Part shown: piece after piece, positions 29,845 through 40,351 of the stretch
How positions within the stretch are numbered: position 1 is the first letter of the stretch
Layout of the letters: every line of letters begins with the position of its first letter
Assembly: GCA_049318825.1 (NCBI GenBank)
Contig: JBMOFM010000002.1
Location: forward strand, 20,632-84,631
Reading direction: 5' to 3'
DNA length: 64,000 nt
DNA from: Alphaproteobacteria bacterium
GTDB lineage: Bacteria > Pseudomonadota > Alphaproteobacteria > JBMOFM01
Translations under genes and position numbers: made by a program
The notes under the pieces: generated by a model
Database searches by the model: none
Told to the model about the DNA's origin: nothing
The model's input: the letters and a program-made list of their open reading frames with translations, nothing else

Positions 29845-31392
29845 TCAGCGTGGCAGCAAAAAATAGATAGTGGTGCCTTGATTAAGGTTTGATTCTAACC
29901 AGATTTTACCCCCCAAGCGTTCAATGATTTTTTTGCAGGAGGTAAGACCAATGCCATTGCCAGCTTGATAAAGGCTAGGTTCTAAGCGTCTGAACGGCTC
30001 AAATACACTATCTTTATATTCATTGGCGATGCCTATACCATTATCGGCTACCGTAAATAGCCAATTCTCTGCTTGTAACGCAGCGTTAATTTCAATGATG
30101 AGGGGTCGATCAAGCTGGCGATATTTTATGGCATTATCCAGCAAATTTAACATCACCCGCCTAAACATGGAAGGCACGGTGTGAATAGTGGGCAAGAGCG
30201 CTGCATGAATAGTGGGGTTGAGCTCATCGATCAGGGGTTTCAAATCTTCCAGCACGGCTAAAAATTCTGTTGCACAATCACAAGATTCAATGGCAAGGGC
30301 TTCTTCGCTTACTCTGGTATAGCCTAATAAATCATTGATCATTTCTTCGGCGCGTTTGGCGGTGTTTTCAATAATTTCAATATATTCATGGGTGCTATCG
30401 GTTAAGGCTGGAGCCATTTCATTTTTCAACAGGGTTGCAAAACAGCGCATGGTGCGTACTGGTTCTTTAAGATCATGGGCAGCGGCATGGGCAAATTTTT
30501 CTAAATCGTCATTTTTTTCGGCCAATTGCGTAATAAGCTTTTTACGTTCGTGGGCTAAGCCTTTTTCTTTTTTACTCACATGATTGAGGAATGCCAACAT
30601 GATAGAAGCCACTAACATCACATATAAGGCCATGATAATCGTTACCATGGTACGGTAATGCTGAATTTGTTTTACCAACCGTTCTTGTAAGAAACCCTGC
30701 AACAGGGTGGTGGTGGCCGCCGTAATAGTTTCTATATCGTTGATTAATTTATCAAATGTTTCAACAGGGTGGGGAAGAGTAGTGGATTGTAATAATATAT
30801 TTTTTATGTGAGCAGTAGCCGCAGCAATCTGGTTTGCATATTCTGGCCGGTAGGCGGATATTTTTTTCTGGGCGTGGGTAAGATTTTCTAAATGAAAGGG
30901 TATATCTGGCAGATGATGGCTGGGTGGTTGGCGATAAATCGCTATATGCTCTACTAATAAAGGTACATGGTTCAATAAGGTGGTGGTGGCATAATAGCTG
31001 GGAATTTCTGGGTCTAGAATTAGGTTGGATTGATCGCCAATATCGCGAATTAGTTGGCGCAGCAATGCTGTAAAAGCAGAAAATTCAAGGGGTTGCTGTT
31101 GTAATTTTTCTTGAATTGGCCACCATAAATTGTTTGTACTTTCATGGGGTAGCGCCATAATTTTTTGGCGTATATCTTCTATATTGTGGGTTTTATGCAG
31201 ATCAAGATATAAATCTGCGGCGCTGGTAAATTGTTGCAGGCCTTGCAGTTCTTTTTCAGTGAATTTTATATTGGCCGAATAGGAACGCAGTAAGGTGATT
31301 GCGGCCAATATATAAATTACCGAAATAAAGCCAATAGCCCAAAATGCTGGCCAGAACCCTTGTAAGGGGGAATGAAATTTTATCTTAAACAT
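29845..31392 (-). CDS. Membrane sensor histidine kinase
   Basis: 2 TM, periplasmic SNLILDP..SYY domain, H-box AHDLKEPVR, NLLDNAIKY, DNGIGI, GIGL. Confidence 0.92.
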   Translation of the reverse strand: MFKIKFHSPLQGFWPAFWAIGFISVIYILAAITLLRSYSANIKFTEKELQGLQQFTSAADLYLDLHKTHNIEDIRQKIMALPHESTNNLWWPIQEKLQQQPLEFSAFTALLRQLIRDIGDQSNLILDPEIPSYYATTTLLNHVPLLVEHIAIYRQPPSHHLPDIPFHLENLTHAQKKISAYRPEYANQIAAATAHIKNILLQSTTLPHPVETFDKLINDIETITAATTTLLQGFLQERLVKQIQHYRTMVTIIMALYVMLVASIMLAFLNHVSKKEKGLAHERKKLITQLAEKNDDLEKFAHAAAHDLKEPVRTMRCFATLLKNEMAPALTDSTHEYIEIIENTAKRAEEMINDLLGYTRVSEEALAIESCDCATEFLAVLEDLKPLIDELNPTIHAALLPTIHTVPSMFRRVMLNLLDNAIKYRQLDRPLIIEINAALQAENWLFTVADNGIGIANEYKDSVFEPFRRLEPSLYQAGNGIGLTSCKKIIERLGGKIWLESNLNQGTTIYFLLPR

Positions 31393-31436
31393 TTTGTTTG
31401 AATCTAAATAATAGATATATTGTTATGGTAGTTTTA

Positions 31437-32150
31437 ATGATGGAAGAAAACAATAAACTACTCGATAAACATGTTGGCCATAAAATAAAAGAACGCCGGA
31501 AAATATTGGGCTTAACCCAAGCCGAGTTGGCGGATATTCTTGGCCTATCGCATCAACAAATTCAGCGTTATGAAAGTGGTGAAAACACAGTTTCTATGTC
31601 GCGCATGTTGGAAATTGCTGATGGTTTGAACATAAAAGCAGGCTATTTTTATGAAAATGCCCCATTGGCAAGGCCTTGTGAACAGAAGCAGGCGAATGGA
31701 ATTATTACCAAGGTCATGGAACGCCCTTTGAGGATATTATTGGTGGAGGATACCTCAAGCGATGAGCTGTTATTTCGCAAAGCCGTGAGTAAAAGCAATA
31801 TAGAAGCCGATATTCATGTGATTACTAACCCTGAAAATGTGATGGATTTTTTACATAATCATCAGTTGAAATATGGTGCAGAGCCGCCAGATATAGCAAT
31901 TGTGGATATTAATTTACCCCGCATTAATGGGTTAATGTTGCTCAAGAAAATTAAGAGCGATCATCAATGGAAAAGCCTGCCAGTGATTATGCTGACCAAT
32001 AGTATTCGCAGTAAAGATATGCAAGATGCCTATGCTAACCATGCTAATGGTTTTATTCAGAAAAATTCAGATTTGTTGGGGTTTTATGAAGATGTGAGTA
32101 TTTTACTGCAATATTGGAGTAAAATAGTGATATTGCCCAGCGCCGCATGA
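31437..32150 (+). CDS. XRE-family HTH fused to C-terminal receiver domain
   Basis: LTQAELA..LG.SHQQIQRYESG HTH; ILLVED, VDINLP..NG, VIMLT, F.QK receiver; start 31437 or 31440. Confidence 0.88.
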   Translation: MMEENNKLLDKHVGHKIKERRKILGLTQAELADILGLSHQQIQRYESGENTVSMSRMLEIADGLNIKAGYFYENAPLARPCEQKQANGIITKVMERPLRILLVEDTSSDELLFRKAVSKSNIEADIHVITNPENVMDFLHNHQLKYGAEPPDIAIVDINLPRINGLMLLKKIKSDHQWKSLPVIMLTNSIRSKDMQDAYANHANGFIQKNSDLLGFYEDVSILLQYWSKIVILPSAA

Positions 32151-32405: not shown

Positions 32406-32544
32406 TATAGCCGCTGAACTTAAGCAGGCTTATAGTTCAGCGGCTATATATTCTAAAATTTACGGCACAAAAGGTTGGGCAGCGGCAGTCGCCGCTGTAT
32501 ATAGCCCATTCAGTGTATGTAATCATAAACTTAACGGGCTATAT
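32406..32544. repeat. Three consecutive hairpins, outer two bounded by TATAGCC...GGCTATA
   Basis: 15-bp perfect stem 32406-32420/32434-32448; cagcggc-agtc-gccgctg 32480-32497; 16-bp stem 32499-32514/32529-32544. Confidence 0.75.
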
Positions 32545-32580: not shown

Positions 32581-33537
32581 TTAAGTATTCAACATTGTTG
32601 CTGGTGGGCACAATGTACTGCCAATAAACTGGTGCTGCCAATACACCGTGCCCCGTTGCTGGTTAATCATTCGATTATCAGAATCACATAATACAAGGTT
32701 AGGATAGCCCTGCTGGCGGATTTTATCAGCAAAATCTTTAGCCTCGGCCACGGGTAATAAATGGTAGCCTATAATCACGGCGGTGGTGGCTATGGGCACG
32801 TCTACGCCGTACACGCTCATATGATTATCATCCTCATGATCGCAATAATAAAGGGTCATCGACTCACGCAAGGGGATATTTAAGGGTAAAAAATCCACCA
32901 ATCCGCCATGCACCAGCCCTGCTTTTTGGGCTAAATTGGCGGAGATAAGGATAATTTTTGGCGGTGTTTTTTCTTCACTGTTGAGATGTTGAGGAAATAA
33001 CAAGGCCCCTTGGTAGGTTGCGCGCTGTAGCTCTATTGGTTTTTGGCTACGAATTTGGTGTAATTTGCCAGCGTAAAATACCATTTGCCCATCACTAGCT
33101 AGGGGGAGAGCTACTTTTTGGCTGTTATGCTGCAAATGGTGAAAGAAGCTTTCCTGTTGGCGGGTGTCACTATAAATAATGCGACGAATATCAACCACAT
33201 CGCCCACGTTAAAAAATTGAGCTGCCCCTCCATTCAGGCAAATATCATCGGTTTTGCCTTCAATTACATAGGTGCTAACATGTTGACCAGTGGCGGCCGA
33301 GCGAATACGCACCATTTCCCCTGGTAAAAATCCTAAGGAAGCAGGCAGGGTGATTGAGCCAACATAATGGGGGTCGGCTTGGGTGATGATGGCATGGTGG
33401 ATAAGAGCGGTGCAATATTCACGGGCTAAAAATTTTTTAGGCCCAGAAGTTGGAGGCAACATAGGAAAACCGTGCGGCGACGCCATGATTTTTTGTTGCA
33501 CAGGGGTGAAAAGTGGAGAAATACAGGCACTATTCAT
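32581..33537 (-). CDS. Tandem-domain aspartate 1-decarboxylase (PanD)-like protein
   Basis: Domain 1: IH.A.IT.AD.HYVGSIT, STYVI, ICLNGGAA, GD.V; domain 2: GKLH, AGL...VD...R.S, VIIGY....EA, P.LV.CD.DN. Confidence 0.8.
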   Translation of the reverse strand: MNSACISPLFTPVQQKIMASPHGFPMLPPTSGPKKFLAREYCTALIHHAIITQADPHYVGSITLPASLGFLPGEMVRIRSAATGQHVSTYVIEGKTDDICLNGGAAQFFNVGDVVDIRRIIYSDTRQQESFFHHLQHNSQKVALPLASDGQMVFYAGKLHQIRSQKPIELQRATYQGALLFPQHLNSEEKTPPKIILISANLAQKAGLVHGGLVDFLPLNIPLRESMTLYYCDHEDDNHMSVYGVDVPIATTAVIIGYHLLPVAEAKDFADKIRQQGYPNLVLCDSDNRMINQQRGTVYWQHQFIGSTLCPPATMLNT

Positions 33538-33688
33538 TAAGCATTACCAAAATATAGATACGCATATTATACAACTATATCTGGTTTTTATCTATTTAGA
33601 ATATTGTCACGGACATTATTTCACCTTGTGTAATGGCATCTAGTGCTCTAACCAATTTTGAAAATATTGATATTATTAGAGGCGTATA

Positions 33689-35110
33689 ATGACCGATTTC
33701 AAAAAATACACCAATTTCTCTGGACGCATAATAATGATTGGGTTTGGGAGTATCGGTCAAGGTGTATTGCCATTAATCTTTCGCCATATTGGTATGAAAC
33801 CAGAACAGGTGCGGGTAATTACGGCGGATGAAGCTGGCCGCGCTGAGGCTGAGAATTTTGGTGTGGATTTTGTGGTGCAGCCATTAACCCGCGATAATTA
33901 CCGCTCTATTTTAACGCCATTGCTACAAAAAGGCGATTTTGTGGTTAATCTTTCGGTGGAAGTATCGTCGCTGGCGTTGGTTGAATTATGCGCAGAAATT
34001 GGTGCTTTATATATTGATACATGTATTGAGCCATGGCCGGGTGGTTATACCGACCCCAATATCAGCGTATCTGCCCGTTCTAATTATGGTTTGCGCGAGC
34101 AAGCCTTAGCATTGCAAGCAACATTGGGTAATAAAAGCCCCACTGCTTTGTTAACCCATGGTGCTAATCCGGGCTTGGTTTCACATTTGGTGAAGCAGGC
34201 TTTATTGGATATAGCACAAAAGCTGGGCGAAAAAATTACTGTGCCCCAAAGCCGTGAAGAATGGGCAAATCTGGCCGCTAATTTAGGGGTTAAGGTAATC
34301 CATATTGCCGAGCGCGATACCCAAACCAGCAATATTCCGAAAGAACCGGGGGAATTTGTTAATACTTGGTCGATTGATGGTTTTGTGAGTGAAGGCAGCC
34401 AACCCGCCGAATTGGGTTGGGGTAGCCACGAGAAACATTTCCCCCAAGATGGGATGCGCCATGATTATGGCAAGGGCAGTGCTATTTATTTGCAGCGCCC
34501 GGGGGCTTCCACAAGGGTGCGCAGTTGGACACCCTTAGAAGGCAGTTTCCATGGTTTTTTGATTACCCATGGGGAGTCTATTTCTATCTCGGATTATCTG
34601 ACTAAACGCCAGAATGATTCGGTGATCTATCGCCCCACGGTGCATTATGCCTATCACCCTTGCGATGGTGCGGTACTTTCCATTCATGAATTGGCAGGTA
34701 AAAACTGGCACATGCAGGAAAAGAAACGCTTGGTGGTGGATGAAATCACCCATGGCATGGATGAGTTGGGCGTATTATTGATGGGGGATCGCCACGGTTC
34801 TTACTGGTATGGTTCGCGCCTGACCATTGAAGATGCCCGTGCGTTAGTGCCTTATAATAATGCCACCAGCTTGCAGGTAACCGTGGCCGTATTGGCAGGG
34901 ATTATTTGGGCCATAGAAAACCCAACCCAAGGCTTGGTGGAGCCAGAGCAAATGGATTTTGCCCGCGCCATGGAAATTATGCTGCCCTATTTGGGCGAAA
35001 TGGCTGGCGTGTTTTCGGATTGGACACCATTACAAGAGCGTGGCCGTTTATTTGCTGAAGATGTGGATAATAGCTGCCCTTGGCAGTTCAAAAATTTCAG
35101 GGTGGTGTAA
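33689..35110 (+). CDS. hss: Homospermidine synthase
   Basis: IGFGSIG, YIDTCIEPW, HGANPGLVS, IHIAERDTQ, FVNTWSIDGF, RPTVHYAYHPC, NATSLQV, PWQF.N. Confidence 0.96.
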   Translation: MTDFKKYTNFSGRIIMIGFGSIGQGVLPLIFRHIGMKPEQVRVITADEAGRAEAENFGVDFVVQPLTRDNYRSILTPLLQKGDFVVNLSVEVSSLALVELCAEIGALYIDTCIEPWPGGYTDPNISVSARSNYGLREQALALQATLGNKSPTALLTHGANPGLVSHLVKQALLDIAQKLGEKITVPQSREEWANLAANLGVKVIHIAERDTQTSNIPKEPGEFVNTWSIDGFVSEGSQPAELGWGSHEKHFPQDGMRHDYGKGSAIYLQRPGASTRVRSWTPLEGSFHGFLITHGESISISDYLTKRQNDSVIYRPTVHYAYHPCDGAVLSIHELAGKNWHMQEKKRLVVDEITHGMDELGVLLMGDRHGSYWYGSRLTIEDARALVPYNNATSLQVTVAVLAGIIWAIENPTQGLVEPEQMDFARAMEIMLPYLGEMAGVFSDWTPLQERGRLFAEDVDNSCPWQFKNFRVV

Positions 35111-35149: not shown

Positions 35150-37138
35150 TCACGGTGTCAATTTTGCCTGAATGGTTGGGCGCGCTGCTGCTTTTTGGGG
35201 GCAGTTGGCATTTTCAAATAATGATAAGTCAAATAATGCTAGGTTACAGCCCAATGTTTGATTGAAGCTATTAATATAGGCATTGCTGAGTTTGGTAGCT
35301 ATGGCAAGCTCACTGCTATTATTGTTTGTAAAAGTATCCGTAATGATTGCATTTAAGTAGTTGTGAATTTCTCCTACTCTTTCTGCATGGCGGAATATAA
35401 ATGAGTTTCTAAAATCAATATCTTTCATGAATTTTTCAATCAACGATGGGGAATATTCTAGCCTCATTGCGGCTGCTTTTTCTTCTACGGCATTTGCTGC
35501 CAATTCTAAAGATTGGGGCGTTGGCCGTTTGCCAAATTCTGCTTCAAATTCGCTGATGATAGCCTGAGCATGCGCAATTTTTTTGAGAAAATAATCTTCC
35601 AAATGTTGAGTGATACCGTTGCGTAGCTCTGGAGAGATGAGTTGTAATGCATCACAATCTTGCATTTTACTGCACCATTCTCTCACCACATCTTCCAAAC
35701 AATCTTTATCCGATTGTATGGGGTAGCCATCCCTGATTTCCATCACGGGTCTTAAATGGCAGCGCACAGAGTTTAATAATACTTGATGTTGCTGGTAAAA
35801 AAGAATTTCTTGTTGCGTGCGTTGTGGCCAGATAATGGTAGCGGGTTCAGACTGGCAATCTATACGGATATGGGAAAAATAATCGGTAAGTTTTTGTGCC
35901 CCAATTGTTGAAATATAAACCATCTCACCATAGGTATCACTATCCACAGCTTTATCCAATAGTTGGGTGAATGGTTGTAACCCAAGATTATCTAATCTTG
36001 TATGTTTCAATACTCTATCAAGGCTTTCTGGTGGTAAATCAAGGCTATTATCCACTCTTAAAGTAGCGGCGTTGAGTGTGTGCCATAAACGGTTTGCGGT
36101 GGTATCTTCACAGGAAAAATGGGGTGTTATGCCAGCGCTATGGGGAAATTTAATAGTGGGTTGGCCAGAAAGATTATGCTCAAAACCATGAGCAATGGCG
36201 GCATATTGAATGAGTAAGGCCAATGCTAAATGTTCACTGTTCGCTATATGATAGCCGGCTCGTAACTCCCAATGATCATGCGTGGTGCGTAAATCATTTT
36301 GTCGGCCGGGGCCAACCAGAATTTTTTCTGATCCATCATTAATAAATTTTTGTAGCAAAATATAGCCATGGTGAAACCAATTAGCATTGGATTCCAGATT
36401 ATTCAAAAAAGGGTTAAATACATCAATATCGTATAAATCTTCTGCTAAACTCAGGTAGCAATCATTGATGGTTTTACCAATAGTTGCCACCAAATTAGCA
36501 CTTTTATCAGTGCAATGAGGATTGTTGGCAGCACTTAAATTTTCACCGTTTTCCCACACGCTGATATTAATGTGGCGGCGGGTGCTAGAAAATTCTAGGT
36601 CATATTGTGCCGCTTTTTCTTGTATAAATAATACGGCTTCAGAAAAATCGGCCAGAAATTTTCTCAACCCCAAATCATGGTGATTAAACCGAATTTCAAG
36701 AGCATCATTATCACTATGTTCATAATGACCATCATAAGCACCTTCGCCATGGCCTTTTTTGAAAAATCTGGGGTCACGGAATTCTATGACCGTGGGAAAT
36801 TTTTCTTGTAATTGATAAATAATAATCTCGCGCGCATCATAATCTTGAACGGCGCGCAATAATTCAAACATGAGTGCTTGTTCTTGCGCATTACAATTGG
36901 TGTATTGTTGCTCTAATTCATCGATAAGCTGTTGTTTTTCTTCCAGCCATTTTATGTTGCCATTGGCTGGATGAAGTGAGAGGCGAAATTCTAATTCATA
37001 CCCCACTTCAATATGGCGATTTTTTTCGGCCAGTTTTTGCTCAATGGTTTCAATTGCCGCAATAATTTCTTGGTTCAGTGCCCATGTTGCTGGTAATTCA
37101 GTAAAAGGGTGGAGATATTCAAAAGCGAGCGTCATCAC
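35150..37138 (-). CDS. Hypothetical protein with divergent glutamine-synthetase-like catalytic motifs
   Basis: VGYELEF, ALEIRF, RHINISVW..GENL, WELR in GS-domain order. Confidence 0.55.
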   Translation of the reverse strand: MMTLAFEYLHPFTELPATWALNQEIIAAIETIEQKLAEKNRHIEVGYELEFRLSLHPANGNIKWLEEKQQLIDELEQQYTNCNAQEQALMFELLRAVQDYDAREIIIYQLQEKFPTVIEFRDPRFFKKGHGEGAYDGHYEHSDNDALEIRFNHHDLGLRKFLADFSEAVLFIQEKAAQYDLEFSSTRRHINISVWENGENLSAANNPHCTDKSANLVATIGKTINDCYLSLAEDLYDIDVFNPFLNNLESNANWFHHGYILLQKFINDGSEKILVGPGRQNDLRTTHDHWELRAGYHIANSEHLALALLIQYAAIAHGFEHNLSGQPTIKFPHSAGITPHFSCEDTTANRLWHTLNAATLRVDNSLDLPPESLDRVLKHTRLDNLGLQPFTQLLDKAVDSDTYGEMVYISTIGAQKLTDYFSHIRIDCQSEPATIIWPQRTQQEILFYQQHQVLLNSVRCHLRPVMEIRDGYPIQSDKDCLEDVVREWCSKMQDCDALQLISPELRNGITQHLEDYFLKKIAHAQAIISEFEAEFGKRPTPQSLELAANAVEEKAAAMRLEYSPSLIEKFMKDIDFRNSFIFRHAERVGEIHNYLNAIITDTFTNNNSSELAIATKLSNAYINSFNQTLGCNLALFDLSLFENANCPQKAAARPTIQAKLTP

Positions 37139-37201: not shown

Positions 37202-40200
37202 TTATGATGAAGAACCATTGCGGTATTTTTCTAACACGCCCTTAAAGGTATCAATCTCAGAAACTTGCGCCCGTAAATTGGCTAGGGATGATAAGCCTTC
37301 ATCGCCATTGGGGCGGGTGATCAGGTTAAAAGTATCCATATCATTTTTTTCAGCAAATTTGCCGCTATATAAGGTGCGTAGGCCATTCAGCCCTTCTTTA
37401 TCGCCACTCAGAGAAATAGCCACCGCCTGATTGAGTATTATCCTTGCCTGTTCACCTTTAATACCATTTTGCGGTATAGGGCCAGCTAAACGCGCCAGCG
37501 CCGTGGCTACCACATTCCAGCGTTTAGAACGCCAGCCAATATCGGCCCGCAAGCGTTCTACATCATTGCCGCTCAGCCCTTCCAGCTGCTCTAACGCCTT
37601 ATCAACCCGTGCTAGGCGTGAAAAAGCATCAGCCCGCAATAGTTTAATTTCTTGTTTGGTTGGATCATTTGCTGTTTCTTGGTTGATTGAATCCAGCATG
37701 GAAAGGGCTATATCGGCCTTACCATTTAATAAGGATAAACCAGCCGCCCGCAAAGCCAGCCTATTTTTAACCACAAGGTCAGTTTCTTTTTTGAATTGCT
37801 CGGCCAGTAAATTGGCGGCTTGATCCAGTAGTTCTACATCTGCCATGCGGTTAGATAGCTTTTCTACTGCTTTGGTGCGTCCTACCCCTTCCGGCAATAG
37901 GCTATTGAAATCCTTAAATAGGGCGGCAGCTTCCACAATTGGTAGCTTATCCGCGCCACCTTCAATAAATAATTGCTGAAAACTATCAGAAACGGCCTTA
38001 TCGGCGGCTAATAACAGGGTGGATTGAGGGAAACGGTTTTTCACATTACCAATACTAGCAAAACCATCGCGATATTTGCCCATTTGTAATTGGGCAACTC
38101 CCATATCAAAGACCATTTTCTCTTCTAATTCATCGCCACGCCATGCATAAATTAATGACTGATAGCGCTCAATCGCTAATTCCGGGGTAATTTTTTTATT
38201 TTTAATGAGTAGGGGCAGTAATTTTGCTTCAGCCATTACCTTAAAATAGGCATCATGTGAAGCCATGAGTGATTTTAAGTTTTTTTCAGGATCTTCATTT
38301 TTCATTTCAGCCAGTAATGCCTTAAAATAATGCAAGGCTGGTTTGGTGGCCACGCGCATATAGGCACTCTGTTCTGTTTTCTTGTCTTTAGTTTTTTTCT
38401 CATTCGCTGCGGGTTTTTCGATATGTTCGATGGTTTCCAGCACTTCTTCAGCAATTTTGCTATCTTTTAGCTGGATGGCCGCTTGTAATAGGGAGCTAAA
38501 AATAGCTTCCTGCAGTGGTTTGCTGCTATCTTTAAAGGTGGCTACGGCTTTTTCTAGGTCGGGGCTAACCTTATCCCATTGTTTTTGTTGAATATGGGCT
38601 AAGGCGCGCCATAATGCTATATCATCAAACTCATCCATGGCGCTATTGCTTAATAATTTTCTGGCTTCTTCGCCCTTGTGCATTAAGGCTAAAGATGCTC
38701 CTTTTAGCCCTTGCATTTCCAAGGCATTCATGCTGGCTGGGTTATGGCGTATGGTCAGATTAAGATAAGCATCGGCTTCATGGCTATAGCCAAAAGCCAG
38801 ATGTAGCCGTGCCAGATTAATAAATTGATTGATTGATTCTGCGGGTATTTCGCTTTTGGAGGCTTGTCTTTCCAGTTCTTGCCGTCTTTTTTGTAATTCA
38901 GGATAATGGTTGGTTTGCCAATCACCCAATTTTAAGAGGTTAGAATTTTTACGGCCACTAAATATAGAACCCAAAGGATGGCTTGCGGTGAGTAAACCAT
39001 CCTTTGGTAACAGCAACAAATAATGATTTTGTGCATCAACTTTAATATGATCGGTTTTTAATTGCCATACCAACCCTTGGAGGGTGGGCAACACCGATAT
39101 TTGCTGCATATCCCTACTTTCTTGATTGCGCAGACCAGAAGAGGCCACGGGTAACACCAGTAGGCGATTGCCCAAAATAGGATCAACCACATCCAGTGGT
39201 TTTATGTCTTCAGAGGGCATATGGGCGCCTAATACGGTTTTACCATCATGTTCTAACATGCGGTGGGTGATATTAGACGTAATGGCTTTGCTATTTTCAC
39301 CAATCATCCAAGCAAAACCTTGCTGCCAAACCACCATTTTATCGATGATGGATGGTTGATGCGTGGTATTTGTATCTTTTTGCGATAATTTAACGGGTAT
39401 GTTGCTTGAAACATTGCGTAATTCCAATGAAATCACATTGGTGGCACTGTTTTTTTGCGGCCATAGATGGGGAGCGCCAAATATTTCCTTACCCTTTTCC
39501 GTAATTTTTATAGCAGAAGGGTTCAGCGGGTGATCCGTGATGAGTAATAATTGATCAGCCAATTTTACAACGGCAATTTTTAAGGGGATAGGCGGCTGTA
39601 TTTCTAACCATGAGTTAATAATAGCCGCTTCTTCCGCTTTGGTGTTGGCTGTGTTTTCAGCCCCTGCTGGCCCATGAGCCGATGGCGTGGTTTTAGTTTC
39701 TGCATGATGTTCTTCTTTATTATGCCCATCATTTTGGGCGGGCGCTGTTTCAGCTTTTTTTACTTCTGGTTTGGTTTCAGTTTGAGATTGATGGGGATCA
39801 ATAATTTTTACATCGCCCTCATCAACAGGGTTAGCGGCTTGATGTTGTTCTTCTTTAGCGGTGTTTTTATGCCCGTCTTTTTTCTGGAAACCGGGATCTT
39901 TACCGGCTTGAAATTCTTGTACTAAATCCACCACAATTTTATTTCCCATGCGGAAACTGCGGGCCCGCACGCCATTAGGCACAGCAAAAGATACAGTGGT
40001 TTTGCCATTTTTGATGGTAGAGCCAGAAAATTTTTGCAACTGCTTAAAAAAATTGGGACGGATTTGGCTGGCATTAACAGTAATGGCGGTTGGAAACTCT
40101 ATATTAACCCCTGCATTATCTTGGCTGGTGCTGAAGGCTATATTATTAGCAAAATCAAATACCACTCTGGTATGATCGGCATGCTGGCCAGCCCTTATCA

Positions 40201-40351
40201 TCACATTGCGGGCAGAAACTGGTTTAGCGGCTATTGCTGGTGCAGTGTTTTTTTCGGGATTTTTTATAGCTTTATCCTGGGCGATGGCAGCATCCGTCCA
40301 TAGCATAAAACCAGCCATTATTAGCCATAAATAAGAATGTCTTTCACTCAC
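37202..40351 (-). CDS. Large exported protein, AMIN-like N-domain plus TPR-like helical region (possibly flagellar-associated)
   Basis: Signal peptide, IRAGQHADHTRVVFDF, helical repeats, YAWRGDELE motif. Confidence 0.65.
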   Translation of the reverse strand: MSERHSYLWLIMAGFMLWTDAAIAQDKAIKNPEKNTAPAIAAKPVSARNVMIRAGQHADHTRVVFDFANNIAFSTSQDNAGVNIEFPTAITVNASQIRPNFFKQLQKFSGSTIKNGKTTVSFAVPNGVRARSFRMGNKIVVDLVQEFQAGKDPGFQKKDGHKNTAKEEQHQAANPVDEGDVKIIDPHQSQTETKPEVKKAETAPAQNDGHNKEEHHAETKTTPSAHGPAGAENTANTKAEEAAIINSWLEIQPPIPLKIAVVKLADQLLLITDHPLNPSAIKITEKGKEIFGAPHLWPQKNSATNVISLELRNVSSNIPVKLSQKDTNTTHQPSIIDKMVVWQQGFAWMIGENSKAITSNITHRMLEHDGKTVLGAHMPSEDIKPLDVVDPILGNRLLVLPVASSGLRNQESRDMQQISVLPTLQGLVWQLKTDHIKVDAQNHYLLLLPKDGLLTASHPLGSIFSGRKNSNLLKLGDWQTNHYPELQKRRQELERQASKSEIPAESINQFINLARLHLAFGYSHEADAYLNLTIRHNPASMNALEMQGLKGASLALMHKGEEARKLLSNSAMDEFDDIALWRALAHIQQKQWDKVSPDLEKAVATFKDSSKPLQEAIFSSLLQAAIQLKDSKIAEEVLETIEHIEKPAANEKKTKDKKTEQSAYMRVATKPALHYFKALLAEMKNEDPEKNLKSLMASHDAYFKVMAEAKLLPLLIKNKKITPELAIERYQSLIYAWRGDELEEKMVFDMGVAQLQMGKYRDGFASIGNVKNRFPQSTLLLAADKAVSDSFQQLFIEGGADKLPIVEAAALFKDFNSLLPEGVGRTKAVEKLSNRMADVELLDQAANLLAEQFKKETDLVVKNRLALRAAGLSLLNGKADIALSMLDSINQETANDPTKQEIKLLRADAFSRLARVDKALEQLEGLSGNDVERLRADIGWRSKRWNVVATALARLAGPIPQNGIKGEQARIILNQAVAISLSGDKEGLNGLRTLYSGKFAEKNDMDTFNLITRPNGDEGLSSLANLRAQVSEIDTFKGVLEKYRNGSSS

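What the first reader, a model, noticed from the sequence alone, without database searches (positions are those of the whole stretch)
32581..33537. Two-domain PanD with reciprocal loss of active-site residues (fused pseudo-heterodimer)
Seen, by manual alignment to E. coli PanD (about 126 aa): domain 1 keeps the self-cleavage site YVG|S (G60-S61), T89-Y90 and N102-G103, but has Leu45 at Lys9 and His86 at Arg54. Domain 2 keeps GKLH (K158) and, in a gap-free alignment, R224 at Arg54, but its cleavage site reads YQGA and the TY and NG motifs are lost. Established: PanD is a homotetramer whose active sites lie between subunits, with pyruvoyl, Thr57, Tyr58 and Asn72 from one chain and Lys9 and Arg54 from the neighbour. 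Inference: duplication, fusion and division of labour gave a dimer of two-domain chains with half the active sites. The dead interface and the roughly 18-aa insert in domain 2 may be regulatory or act as a built-in activator. I know of no described PanD with this layout.
Basis: partly seen in the sequence, partly recalled or inferred. Interest (0 to 1): 0.85.

Follow-up and report, generated by a model that had tools for sequence, protein, structure and literature searches.

The report
Fused two-domain PanD with split active site
This gene encodes a very rare double version of the vitamin-B5 pathway enzyme aspartate decarboxylase, in which the first half keeps the self-made cofactor site and the second half keeps only the substrate-gripping residues normally lent by a neighbouring subunit.

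Summary
The 318-aa ORF (32581-33537, minus strand) has two PanD-derived domains.

- **Domain 1 (39-127):** matches Pfam Asp_decarbox. It keeps Y58, G60-S61, T89-Y90 and N102-G103, but has L45 at Lys9 and H86 at Arg54.
- **Domain 2 (150-290):** Pfam does not detect it. Its profile matches a PanD profile (95.8%, E 6.9e-9). Two AlphaFold models hit only PanD at the top (Z 11.6 and 13.6). K158, H160 and R224 sit at Lys9, His11 and Arg54. The cleavage Ser, Thr57, Tyr58 and Asn72 are gone.
- **Family:** the split is invariant in all 8 full-length relatives plus one fragment, at 25-33% identity. Only about ten sequences turned up in the collections searched.
- **Correction:** "YQGA" lies in an insert that only this protein has. 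Profile and fold alignments place Ser25 at I195.
- **Function:** probably aspartate decarboxylation. This genome has panB and panC and no other PanD gene. Three other genomes also carry a canonical panD, so another role is possible.
- **Untested:** processing, oligomeric state and domain geometry. The dimer prediction gave no verdict.

This is a new variant of a known enzyme.

The parts
32581..33537 (-). Whole ORF, 318 aa plus stop (P0001): two-domain PanD-family proenzyme
33424..33537 (-). N-terminal extension, residues 1-38. Predicted disordered. Contains His22, invariant in 8 of 8 full-length family members
33157..33423 (-). Domain 1, residues 39-127: PanD-type domain that keeps the pyruvoyl (cis) half-site
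   Evidence: PF02261 E 4.2e-18; hhalign to PanD 99.6%, E 7.1e-25
33355..33360 (-). Codons G60-S61, the predicted self-cleavage and pyruvoyl-forming site (GGC TCA)
   Evidence: Invariant in 8 of 8. Processing itself not tested
33268..33273 (-). Codons T89-Y90, at PanD Thr57-Tyr58
33220..33234 (-). Codons N102-G-G-A-A106, at PanD Asn72-Ala76
33091..33156 (-). Linker, residues 128-149: predicted helix 126-137, then a low-confidence stretch
32668..33090 (-). Domain 2, residues 150-290: uncleavable PanD-fold domain that keeps only the trans half-site
   Evidence: hhalign 95.8%, E 6.9e-9; Z 11.6; Z 13.6
33058..33066 (-). Codons K158-L-H160 of the invariant Y-x-G-K-x-H motif, at PanD Lys9 and His11
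32956..33042 (-). Residues 166-194: insert in place of the PanD activation loop, about 21 residues longer than in PanD and mostly pLDDT below 50. Contains the YQGA look-alike at 175-178
32866..32868 (-). Codon R224 (CGT), at PanD Arg54; invariant in 9 of 9
32584..32667 (-). C-terminal tail, residues 291-318: predicted disordered and not conserved
33566..33594 (-). Promoter-like site (TAGATA-17-TATAAT, 10 of 12) 29 nt upstream of the ATG, in the 151-bp gap shared with the divergent hss gene
   Evidence: The number of such sites in the region is not above the shuffles, so this is a consensus match only

Best explanation
The gene encodes a tandem-duplicated, fused member of the PanD (pyruvoyl-dependent aspartate 1-decarboxylase) family. 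The two halves have divided the composite PanD active site between them.

Proposed mechanism, with each step marked shown or inferred:
1. **Processing (inferred).** The 35.2-kDa proenzyme cleaves itself between G60 and S61 of domain 1, helped by T89 at the PanD Thr57 position. This gives a 6.6-kDa beta chain (1-60) and a 28.7-kDa alpha chain (61-318) with an N-terminal pyruvoyl group.
2. **Domain 2 (fold shown, role inferred).** Domain 2 has the PanD fold but no cleavable serine and none of T57, Y58 or N72. It cannot make a cofactor. It supplies K158, H160 and R224, the residues a canonical PanD site borrows from the adjacent subunit. Lys9 pairs with the substrate alpha-carboxylate and Arg54 binds the distal carboxylate.
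3. **Packing (inferred).** Domains 1 and 2 pack like neighbouring PanD subunits and form one complete site per chain. The reciprocal interface is catalytically dead: domain 2's former pyruvoyl side meets domain 1's L45/H86 side. Two chains could close a PanD-like four-domain ring with two live and two dead sites.
4. **Substrate (inferred).** Every known substrate-contacting residue is kept, so the substrate is most likely L-aspartate or a close acidic analogue. In this genome the protein is the likeliest source of beta-alanine for PanC.
For: **Both domains derive from PanD.**
- D1: PF02261 E 4.2e-18; hhalign 99.6%, E 7.1e-25.
- D2: hhalign 95.8%, E 6.9e-9 over PanD 4-126.
- D2 fold matches: Z 11.1-11.6 for model residues 150-290; Z 13.6, 12.6, 12.3 and 9.2 as the four best of 48,161 chains for an independent D2-only model.

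**The residue split is reciprocal and under selection.**
- Across 8 full-length relatives plus one fragment at 25-33% identity, the 13 invariant D1 positions are H22, Y58, G60, S61, G73, T89, Y90, N102, G103, G104, A105, A106 and D113. This is essentially the PanD cis half-site.
- The 16 invariant D2 positions include K158, H160 and R224.
- K9 and R54 equivalents are present in 0 of 8 D1s.
- D1s and D2s each form one clade (8 of 8, support 0.84; 9 of 9, support 1.0). This points to a single origin for the architecture.

**Literature (passages read).**
- PMC3314653: Lys9* and Arg54* come from the other subunit, and the conserved set is K9, H11, Y22, G24, S25, R54, T57, Y58, G73, A74, A75.
- PMC6969166: the site lies at the interface of adjacent subunits, and R54A is inactive.
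- PMC4410942: Thr57 is the only proximal residue needed for activation.

**Role in this genome.**
- It has intact panC and panB (E 6.8e-93 and 1.4e-107).
- There is no other PF02261 match (1 of 1 match is this gene).
- There is no group II PLP decarboxylase.
- There is no hydantase-type beta-alanine synthase above cut-off (24.9 bits against 204).

**Domain packing.** The full-length model has pTM 0.62 with only about two thirds of residues ordered. That is what a rigid two-domain unit would give. This is my inference from the score, not a measurement.
Against: - No geometry was available, so I could not measure whether S61 faces K158 and R224.
- The models are of modest confidence (mean pLDDT 59.5 and 66.2).
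- Processing, activity and oligomeric state are untested.
- Three of the four genomes that carry the family also have a canonical single-domain panD (E 1e-46 to 1e-48) alongside panC. The two-domain protein is therefore not needed there for pantothenate and may do something else.
- It scores below the NCBIfam panD equivalog cut-off (58.1 against 106 bits).
- D1 and D2 profiles show no direct similarity to each other (probability 1.1%), so duplication is inferred only through PanD.
- Other beta-alanine routes or uptake in this genome were not excluded exhaustively.
- Gene neighbourhood gives no functional support. The neighbours differ in all four loci.
Confidence: 0.6

Rival explanations
1. 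Same split-site architecture, but a neofunctionalised pyruvoyl decarboxylase. Its physiological substrate or role is not L-aspartate to beta-alanine for pantothenate. It might act on another acidic amino acid, or be a differently regulated second isozyme. In this genome its presence without a canonical panD would then be coincidental, with beta-alanine obtained another way.
For: - In 3 of 3 other genomes examined, the two-domain gene coexists with a canonical panD (E 1e-46 to 1e-48) and with panC.
- It scores below the panD equivalog cut-off.
- The branches are long and the inserts lineage-specific.
- The distribution is patchy: 1 of 401 genomes of the class sampled, and 2 strong matches among 14 in one order.
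- From recall, not checked here: PanD homologues with altered substrates exist, for example a beta-methylaspartate decarboxylase in cryptophycin biosynthesis.
Against: - All residues known to contact aspartate are kept, including the specificity-determining Arg54 equivalent, in 9 of 9 members.
- In this genome it is the only PanD-family gene beside intact panB and panC.
- There is no conserved neighbouring gene to suggest another pathway.
Confidence: 0.25
2. Domain 2 does not complete domain 1's active site. It is a pseudo-enzyme module that acts as a scaffold, a built-in maturation factor in the manner of PanZ/PanM, or a ligand-binding regulator. Its conserved K, H and R would bind an effector rather than the substrate. 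In the extreme case the whole protein is non-catalytic.
For: - Domain 2 carries a long, poorly ordered insert exactly where PanD has its activation loop.
- Dead paralogues do regulate another pyruvoyl enzyme, AdoMetDC with its prozyme (passages of PMC5201418).
- E. coli PanD needs an external activator (passages of PMC4410942).
Against: - Domain 1 lacks Lys9 and Arg54 in 8 of 8 members. R54A PanD is inactive (PMC6969166 passage). Domain 1 alone should therefore be a poor enzyme unless these residues are supplied, and the only conserved candidates are those of domain 2.
- The complete cis half-site is invariant, which argues against a non-catalytic protein.
Confidence: 0.1
3. The gene belongs to polyamine metabolism together with the divergently transcribed homospermidine synthase gene, for example by decarboxylating ornithine or arginine to feed putrescine to that enzyme.
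For: - The neighbour at 33689-35110 (+) is a homospermidine synthase (E 3.7e-168 to 2ph5_A), separated by a 151-bp shared upstream region.
- Domain 1 has His instead of Arg at the specificity position.
- Pyruvoyl enzymes of another fold have been recruited as ornithine and arginine decarboxylases (PMC10407285, abstract only).
Against: - The pairing with hss is not seen in the three other loci.
- An invariant Arg (R224) and Lys (K158) are predicted to line the site, which would disfavour a basic side chain.
- The genome already has four Orn/Arg/DAP-decarboxylase-family matches.
Confidence: 0.05

Closest known systems
Canonical PanD, aspartate 1-decarboxylase (Pfam PF02261, NCBIfam TIGR00223; e.g. 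PDB 1ppy, 1aw8, 2c45)
   Same: - Both domains share its fold and ancestry.
- Domain 1 keeps the Gly-Ser cleavage site, Thr57, Tyr58 and the Asn72-Gly-x-Ala-Ala motif.
- Domain 2 keeps Lys9, His11 and Arg54, plus the C-terminal segment up to about PanD residue 115.
   Different: - Canonical PanD has one domain of about 115-140 aa. It forms a homotetramer with four identical sites, each built from two identical chains.
- Here two diverged copies sit in one 318-aa chain, and neither copy has a full residue set.
- Domain 1 lacks the PanD C-terminal segment.
- Domain 2 has a longer loop (about 21 residues more) in place of the activation loop.
- There is a 38-residue N-terminal extension with an invariant His.
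- It scores below the equivalog cut-off.
Eukaryotic S-adenosylmethionine decarboxylase (AdoMetDC)
   Same: It is another pyruvoyl enzyme whose single chain arose by duplication and fusion of two bacterial-type half enzymes (PMC5201418, passages of section 12 and the legend of Figure 7). Only one pyruvoyl site is kept per chain. From recall: the remnant of the second site became the putrescine-binding regulatory site.
   Different: - The fold is unrelated (alpha-beta-beta-alpha sandwich, not a double-psi beta-barrel).
- The substrate is different.
- This is an analogy of evolutionary route, not homology.
Trypanosomatid AdoMetDC with its prozyme
   Same: A catalytically dead, unprocessed paralogue pairs with the active pyruvoyl enzyme and is needed for full activity (PMC5201418, abstract and introduction passages).
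   Different: - The two are separate genes, not a fusion.
- The dead partner acts allosterically and does not donate active-site residues.
- The fold is different.
PanD with PanZ/PanM
   Same: An additional protein surface next to the activation loop controls the maturation of PanD (PMC4410942 passages).
   Different: - PanZ is a GNAT-fold, CoA-binding protein unrelated to PanD.
- No PanZ-like part is present here.
- Any activator role for domain 2 is speculation.

Membership tests
PanD / Asp_decarbox (Pfam PF02261) | Match to the family HMM above the gathering score | tested here: met
   65.7 bits against a cut-off of 25, residues 39-127. This covers domain 1 only. Domain 2 is not detected in P0001, and only 1 of 9 family D2s matches, at E 0.0086.
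panD equivalog (NCBIfam TIGR00223) | Whole-protein score above the curated equivalog cut-off | tested here: not met
   58.1 bits against a cut-off of 106.
PanD | Gly24-Ser25 self-cleavage site with Thr57, Tyr58 and Asn72 in the same domain | tested here: met
   G60-S61, T89, Y90 and N102 in domain 1; invariant in 8 of 8 members. This is sequence evidence only; see the next row for cleavage.
PanD | Actual autoproteolysis to a pyruvoyl enzyme | not testable with these tools
   Needs protein work. Expected fragments are 6.6 and 28.7 kDa.
PanD | Lys9, His11 and Arg54 in the same polypeptide domain as the pyruvoyl site, so that a homo-oligomer completes every site | tested here: not met
   Domain 1 has L45 and H86. 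K9 and R54 equivalents are present in 0 of 8 D1s. They are found instead in domain 2 as K158, H160 and R224, in 9 of 9.
PanD | Double-psi beta-barrel PanD fold, tested for domain 2 | tested here: met
   Z 13.6, rmsd 2.6 A, 114 of 117 residues to 1pt0_A. The top 4 of 48,161 chains are PanD, and the next hit has Z 8.3. Also Z 11.6 from the full-length model. Model confidence is moderate.
PanD | Single-domain protomer forming a homotetramer with four equivalent sites | tested here: not met
   The chain has two domains and 318 aa. The oligomeric state itself could not be tested.
PanD | L-aspartate alpha-decarboxylase activity supplying beta-alanine to PanC | not testable with these tools
   Indirect evidence for: it is the only PF02261 gene in a genome that has panB and panC. 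Indirect evidence against: it coexists with a canonical panD in 3 of 3 other genomes.
Duplicated-and-fused pyruvoyl enzymes with one live site per chain (functional analogy to eukaryotic AdoMetDC) | Two homologous halves in one chain, with only one half carrying the pyruvoyl-forming serine | tested here: met
   There is no homology to AdoMetDC, so this is an analogy only.

The most novel reading that the evidence does not exclude
This small family is a natural single-chain 'heterodimer' of PanD. A homo-oligomeric shared-site enzyme has been fixed into an obligate intramolecular live site plus a dead pseudo-site. The dead interface, together with the long domain-2 insert and the invariant His22 of the N-terminal extension, has been recruited as an allosteric or maturation-control site. 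That would repeat, in a second and unrelated pyruvoyl-enzyme fold, the route that produced eukaryotic AdoMetDC and its putrescine site.
Probability: 0.2. Interest if true: 0.75.

Novelty: new variant of a known kind. Interest (0 to 1): 0.6.

Why it matters
PanD is a textbook shared-site homotetramer and a drug target. A natural fusion whose two copies have each kept a complementary half of the site would matter in several ways:

- It would be a clean, sequence-readable case of subfunctionalisation inside an oligomer.
- It would be a natural half-of-the-sites design. It would show directly which residues act in cis and which in trans.
- It would be a second, independent example among pyruvoyl enzymes of duplication and fusion with loss of one site. 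The other is eukaryotic AdoMetDC, where the lost site became regulatory.
- It flags an annotation problem. The protein is labelled only by its N-terminal Pfam domain and falls below the panD equivalog cut-off. Pantothenate pathway reconstructions for such genomes may therefore wrongly call panD absent, or wrongly call it present.

The family is very rare. About ten sequences were found in the collections searched, all from small-genome uncultured bacteria where a label exists. Its general biological reach is therefore limited.

Tried and rejected
- **Dimer prediction.** I sent two copies of residues 30-296 with alignment A3. The verdict was 'no answer' (score 0.00, controls not run). It counts neither for nor against binding.
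- **ESM Atlas on residues 145-295.** No usable feature hit. The structure rows all had TM below 0.5, to unrelated families, from a poor Atlas model. Uninformative.
- **Word-indexed homologue search with the single protein.** It found only the query itself. With profile A1 it found only one two-domain relative (P0011) plus canonical PanDs. The relatives came from the exhaustive search.
- **Direct D1-against-D2 profile comparison.** Probability 1.1%. The link between the halves is visible only through PanD.
- **Pfam on the nine D2 pieces.** One weak PF02261 hit at E 0.0086; the rest is noise.
- **Sequencing runs.** No RNA holder is listed, so nothing can be said about expression. I did not lay reads.
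- **The search of earlier findings.** No earlier findings were seen.
- **Polyamine idea from the hss neighbour.** Considered and ranked low, because the pairing is not conserved and the predicted site is basic.
- **Assembly or frameshift artefact.** Rejected. The same two-domain architecture occurs in independent assemblies.
- **YQGA as the relic cleavage site.** Not adopted, because it lies in a segment only this protein has. MAFFT does pair it with Y-x-G-S, so a relic cannot be excluded.
- **Supplementary files of the papers.** Not opened. They could hold PanD family surveys that list unusual architectures.
- **Other beta-alanine routes.** I did not test CN-hydrolase-type beta-ureidopropionase or transaminase routes in this genome.
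Full report
**1. What is there**

The finding's coordinates are those of a 318-aa ORF on the minus strand, 32581..33537, with an ATG start. A promoter-like site (TAGATA-17-TATAAT) lies 29 nt upstream of the ATG. The region as a whole has no more such sites than shuffled sequence. Pfam finds one domain only, Asp_decarbox PF02261, at residues 39-127 (E 4.2e-18, 65.7 bits, cut-off 25). The NCBIfam panD equivalog scores 58.1 bits against a cut-off of 106. Nothing is reported for the C-terminal 190 residues.

**2. Domain 1**

| PanD residue | This protein |
|---|---|
| Lys9 | L45 |
| His11 | H47 |
| Tyr22 | Y58 |
| Gly24-Ser25 | G60-S61 |
| Arg54 | H86 |
| Thr57-Tyr58 | T89-Y90 |
| Asn72-Gly73 | N102-G103 |

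A profile of the family's first domains matches a 108-sequence PanD profile at 99.6%, E 7.1e-25, over PanD 4-91. Domain 1 therefore lacks the C-terminal quarter of PanD. A predicted helix (126-137) follows instead.

**3. Domain 2**

Three independent lines show it is a PanD domain.

- **Profile comparison.** hhalign of a 9-row domain-2 profile against the PanD profile gives probability 95.8%, E 6.9e-9, 103 aligned columns covering PanD 4-126.
- **Full-length model.** This AlphaFold model came from alignment A3 (9 rows), with mean pLDDT 59.5, pTM 0.62 and domain cores at pLDDT 70-83. Foldseek's displayed top-ranked matches are all PanD chains (E about 1e-4, TM by target 0.72-0.79, 13-17% identity; 20 matches with E <= 0.001). 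VIA-align places model residues 150-290 on whole PanD precursors 1-115 at Z 11.1-11.6, rmsd 2.3-3.0 A, 104-115 residues.
- **Domain-2-only model.** This was built from an alignment with no canonical PanD row (A4; mean pLDDT 66.2, pTM 0.63) and compared with all 48,161 PDB representatives without Foldseek. The four best are PanD (Z 13.6, 12.6, 12.3, 9.2). The fifth is a designed DPBB at 8.3.

The profile and fold alignments agree on the register: 150 to PanD 1, and 195 to PanD 25.

| PanD residue | Domain 2 |
|---|---|
| Lys9 | K158 |
| His11 | H160 |
| Ser25 | I195 |
| Arg54 | R224 |
| Thr57 | M227 |
| Tyr58 | T228 |
| Asn72 | Y243 |
| Gly73 | G244 |

Single-sequence HMMs miss this domain. Only 1 of 9 D2 pieces hits PF02261, at E 0.0086. 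D1 and D2 profiles do not match each other directly.

**4. Corrections to the observation**

It lies inside a 13-residue segment that the other eight family members lack. hhalign and the structural alignments put the Ser25 position 17 residues further on. A plain MAFFT alignment does pair YQG with Y-x-G. It may therefore be a relic kept only here, or it may be chance. In either alignment there is no serine.

The loop between the Lys9 and Ser25 positions is 37 residues here against 16 in PanD, an insert of about 21 rather than 18.

**5. The family**

- The exhaustive search of 1.84 billion representatives gave 431 hits at E <= 1e-3. Among the 150 listed, nearly all are single-domain PanDs matching only residues ~17-150. 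Six others match beyond domain 1: P0005, P0008, P0011, P0023, P0122, and the C-terminal fragment P0027.
- Pattern scans added three genome loci. Of 24 pattern matches, 3 were confirmed. One of them encodes P0008 itself. Their records are titled as an uncultured Rickettsiales MAG and two Alphaproteobacteria MAGs.
- One metagenome fragment was added: of 58 pattern matches, 1 was confirmed.
- Identity to the query is 25-33%.
- A domain-2 profile found the family in 1 of 401 genomes sampled from the window's class, namely the window's own genome.
- It found the family in 2 of 14 genomes of the order of one MAG, plus one weak hit at E 4.5e-4 in a 110-aa frame.
- It found the family in 1 of 400 genomes for the class of the Rickettsiales-labelled MAG, which was that MAG itself.
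- The genome lists are the same, judged by sizes and candidate counts. I therefore infer that the window's genome belongs to the same class as that MAG. It has no relative closer than class level among those held.
- In a FastTree of D1s, D2s and 108 PanDs, the 8 D1s form one clade (support 0.84) and the 9 D2s another (support 1.0, long branch). The architecture arose once.

**6. The reciprocal pattern is conserved**

In the 8 full-length members, the invariant positions of the first 146 residues are H22, Y58, G60, S61, G73, T89, Y90, N102, G103, G104, A105, A106 and D113. Apart from H22, G73 and D113, these are the PanD cis half-site.

None of the 8 has Lys at the Lys9 column (L, S, S, W, F, N, N, L). 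None has Arg or Lys three residues before the T-Y pair (H, L, W, N, W, W, L, L, read). The MAFFT column used is shifted by an insert for the other members.

In the 9 second domains, 16 of 172 positions are invariant. They include K158, H160 and R224 (p about 7e-4 for all three by chance). The Ser25, Thr57, Tyr58 and Asn72 positions carry other residues. One member has Thr-Ser at the Gly-Ser columns.

**7. Why this implies a split active site**

Passages I read give the following.
- PMC3314653: the strictly conserved PanD residues are Lys9, His11, Tyr22, Gly24, Pyr25, Arg54, Thr57, Tyr58, Gly73, Ala74, Ala75, Ile86 and Asn112. Lys9* and Arg54* come from the other subunit. Lys9 pairs with the alpha-carboxylate and Arg54 sets specificity.
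- PMC6969166: the site lies at the interface of two adjacent subunits of the tetramer, Arg54* binds the ligand carboxylate, and R54A is inactive.
- PMC3975893: malonate bridges Lys9 and Arg54.
- PMC4410942: Thr57 is the only proximal residue required for activation.

A domain 1 without Lys9 and Arg54 should be a poor enzyme. A domain 2 without serine cannot make a cofactor. Yet exactly the complementary residues are invariant. The simplest reading is that domain 2 stands where the neighbouring subunit stands in PanD and completes domain 1's site, while the reverse interface is dead.

This step is inference. I had no coordinates, and the homodimer job returned no verdict. The only indirect hint is that pTM 0.62 is about the fraction of ordered residues, as expected if the two domains are modelled as one rigid body.

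**8. Function**

*For aspartate decarboxylation in this genome:*
- panC and panB are intact and adjacent on another contig and are followed by a ChaC-like gene, not panD.
- The only PF02261 match in the 100%-complete genome is this gene.
- There is no group II PLP decarboxylase.
- There is no hydantase-type beta-alanine synthase above cut-off.

*Against a simple panD replacement:*
- All three other genomes carrying the family also have a canonical panD (E 1e-46 to 1e-48) as well as panC.

*Neighbourhood:*
- Here the gene is divergent from a homospermidine synthase gene (E 3.7e-168 to 2ph5_A). It lies beside a two-component pair and two large ORFs without families.
- In the other loci it follows rpoBC, or sits between an amino-acid-binding-protein-like gene and a TolB-like gene. 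These names are my reading of the ORF translations and were not tested.
- The hss link is therefore probably incidental, and a basic site (K158, R224) fits an acidic substrate, not a basic one.

**9. Comparison with what is known**

It is a PanD-family member by Pfam and fold. It fails the equivalog cut-off, the one-domain and homotetramer definition, and the 'all residues in one domain' criterion.

The closest analogy in evolutionary route is eukaryotic AdoMetDC. That pyruvoyl enzyme was formed by duplication and fusion of bacterial half enzymes (PMC5201418, passages). The trypanosomatid dead paralogue 'prozyme' is described in the same paper.

Literature searches for tandem, fused or PanD-like variants, and passages of a PanD phylogeny paper (PMC4537548, no mention of fusion, duplication or paralogues), found no description of this layout. 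The searches cover only the held library, and supplements were not opened.

**10. Verdict**

The division-of-labour interpretation is well supported by conservation and fold. The dimer, half-of-the-sites and regulatory parts are untested. This is a new variant of a known enzyme family. It is rare, mechanistically attractive, and directly testable with ordinary protein work.

Noticed in passing
window 33689-35110 (+): A homospermidine synthase gene (E 3.7e-168 to PDB 2ph5_A) is transcribed divergently from the two-domain PanD gene across a 151-bp gap. The pairing is absent from the three related loci.
   Followed up: partly
window 33472-33474 (-), His22 of P0001: A histidine in the otherwise unconserved, predicted-disordered N-terminal extension is invariant in 8 of 8 full-length family members, usually as H-G. 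No canonical PanD counterpart is known to me, and its role is unexplained.
   Followed up: no
window 32406-32448 and 32499-32544: Two hairpins lie downstream of the gene: a perfect 15-nt stem and a 21-nt stem at 86%. They share a TATAGCC(G/C) motif and also pair with each other at 75%. They could be terminators or a small repeated element.
   Followed up: partly
window 31398-32150 (+) and 29845-31392 (-): A response regulator has an unusual domain order, with an N-terminal XRE-type HTH_3 domain and a C-terminal receiver domain. It is divergent from a histidine kinase gene.
   Followed up: no
window 35150-37138 (-) and 37202-40351 (-): Two large ORFs (662 and 1049 aa) have no Pfam or NCBIfam family. 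The second has only a sub-threshold TPR hit.
   Followed up: no
G000 as a whole: The window's genome (2.25 Mb, 32 contigs, 100% complete) has no held relative closer than class level. All 60 'relatives' offered are 'same class'. The class sample is identical to that of the Rickettsiales-labelled MAG G061.
   Followed up: partly
L017:7890-9230 and P0122 (alignment A3): Some family members carry large lineage-specific inserts inside domain 1. P0122 has about 55 residues before the T-Y pair, and the L017 protein has about 80 residues between Tyr58 and Asn72. Most members also have a 30-35-residue insert in domain 2 that the window's protein lacks. The window's protein is the most compact member.
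   Followed up: no
G000:C15:3-164: One of the four Orn/Arg/DAP-decarboxylase-family matches in the genome is cut off by a contig end, so the decarboxylase inventory of this genome is slightly uncertain.
   Followed up: no
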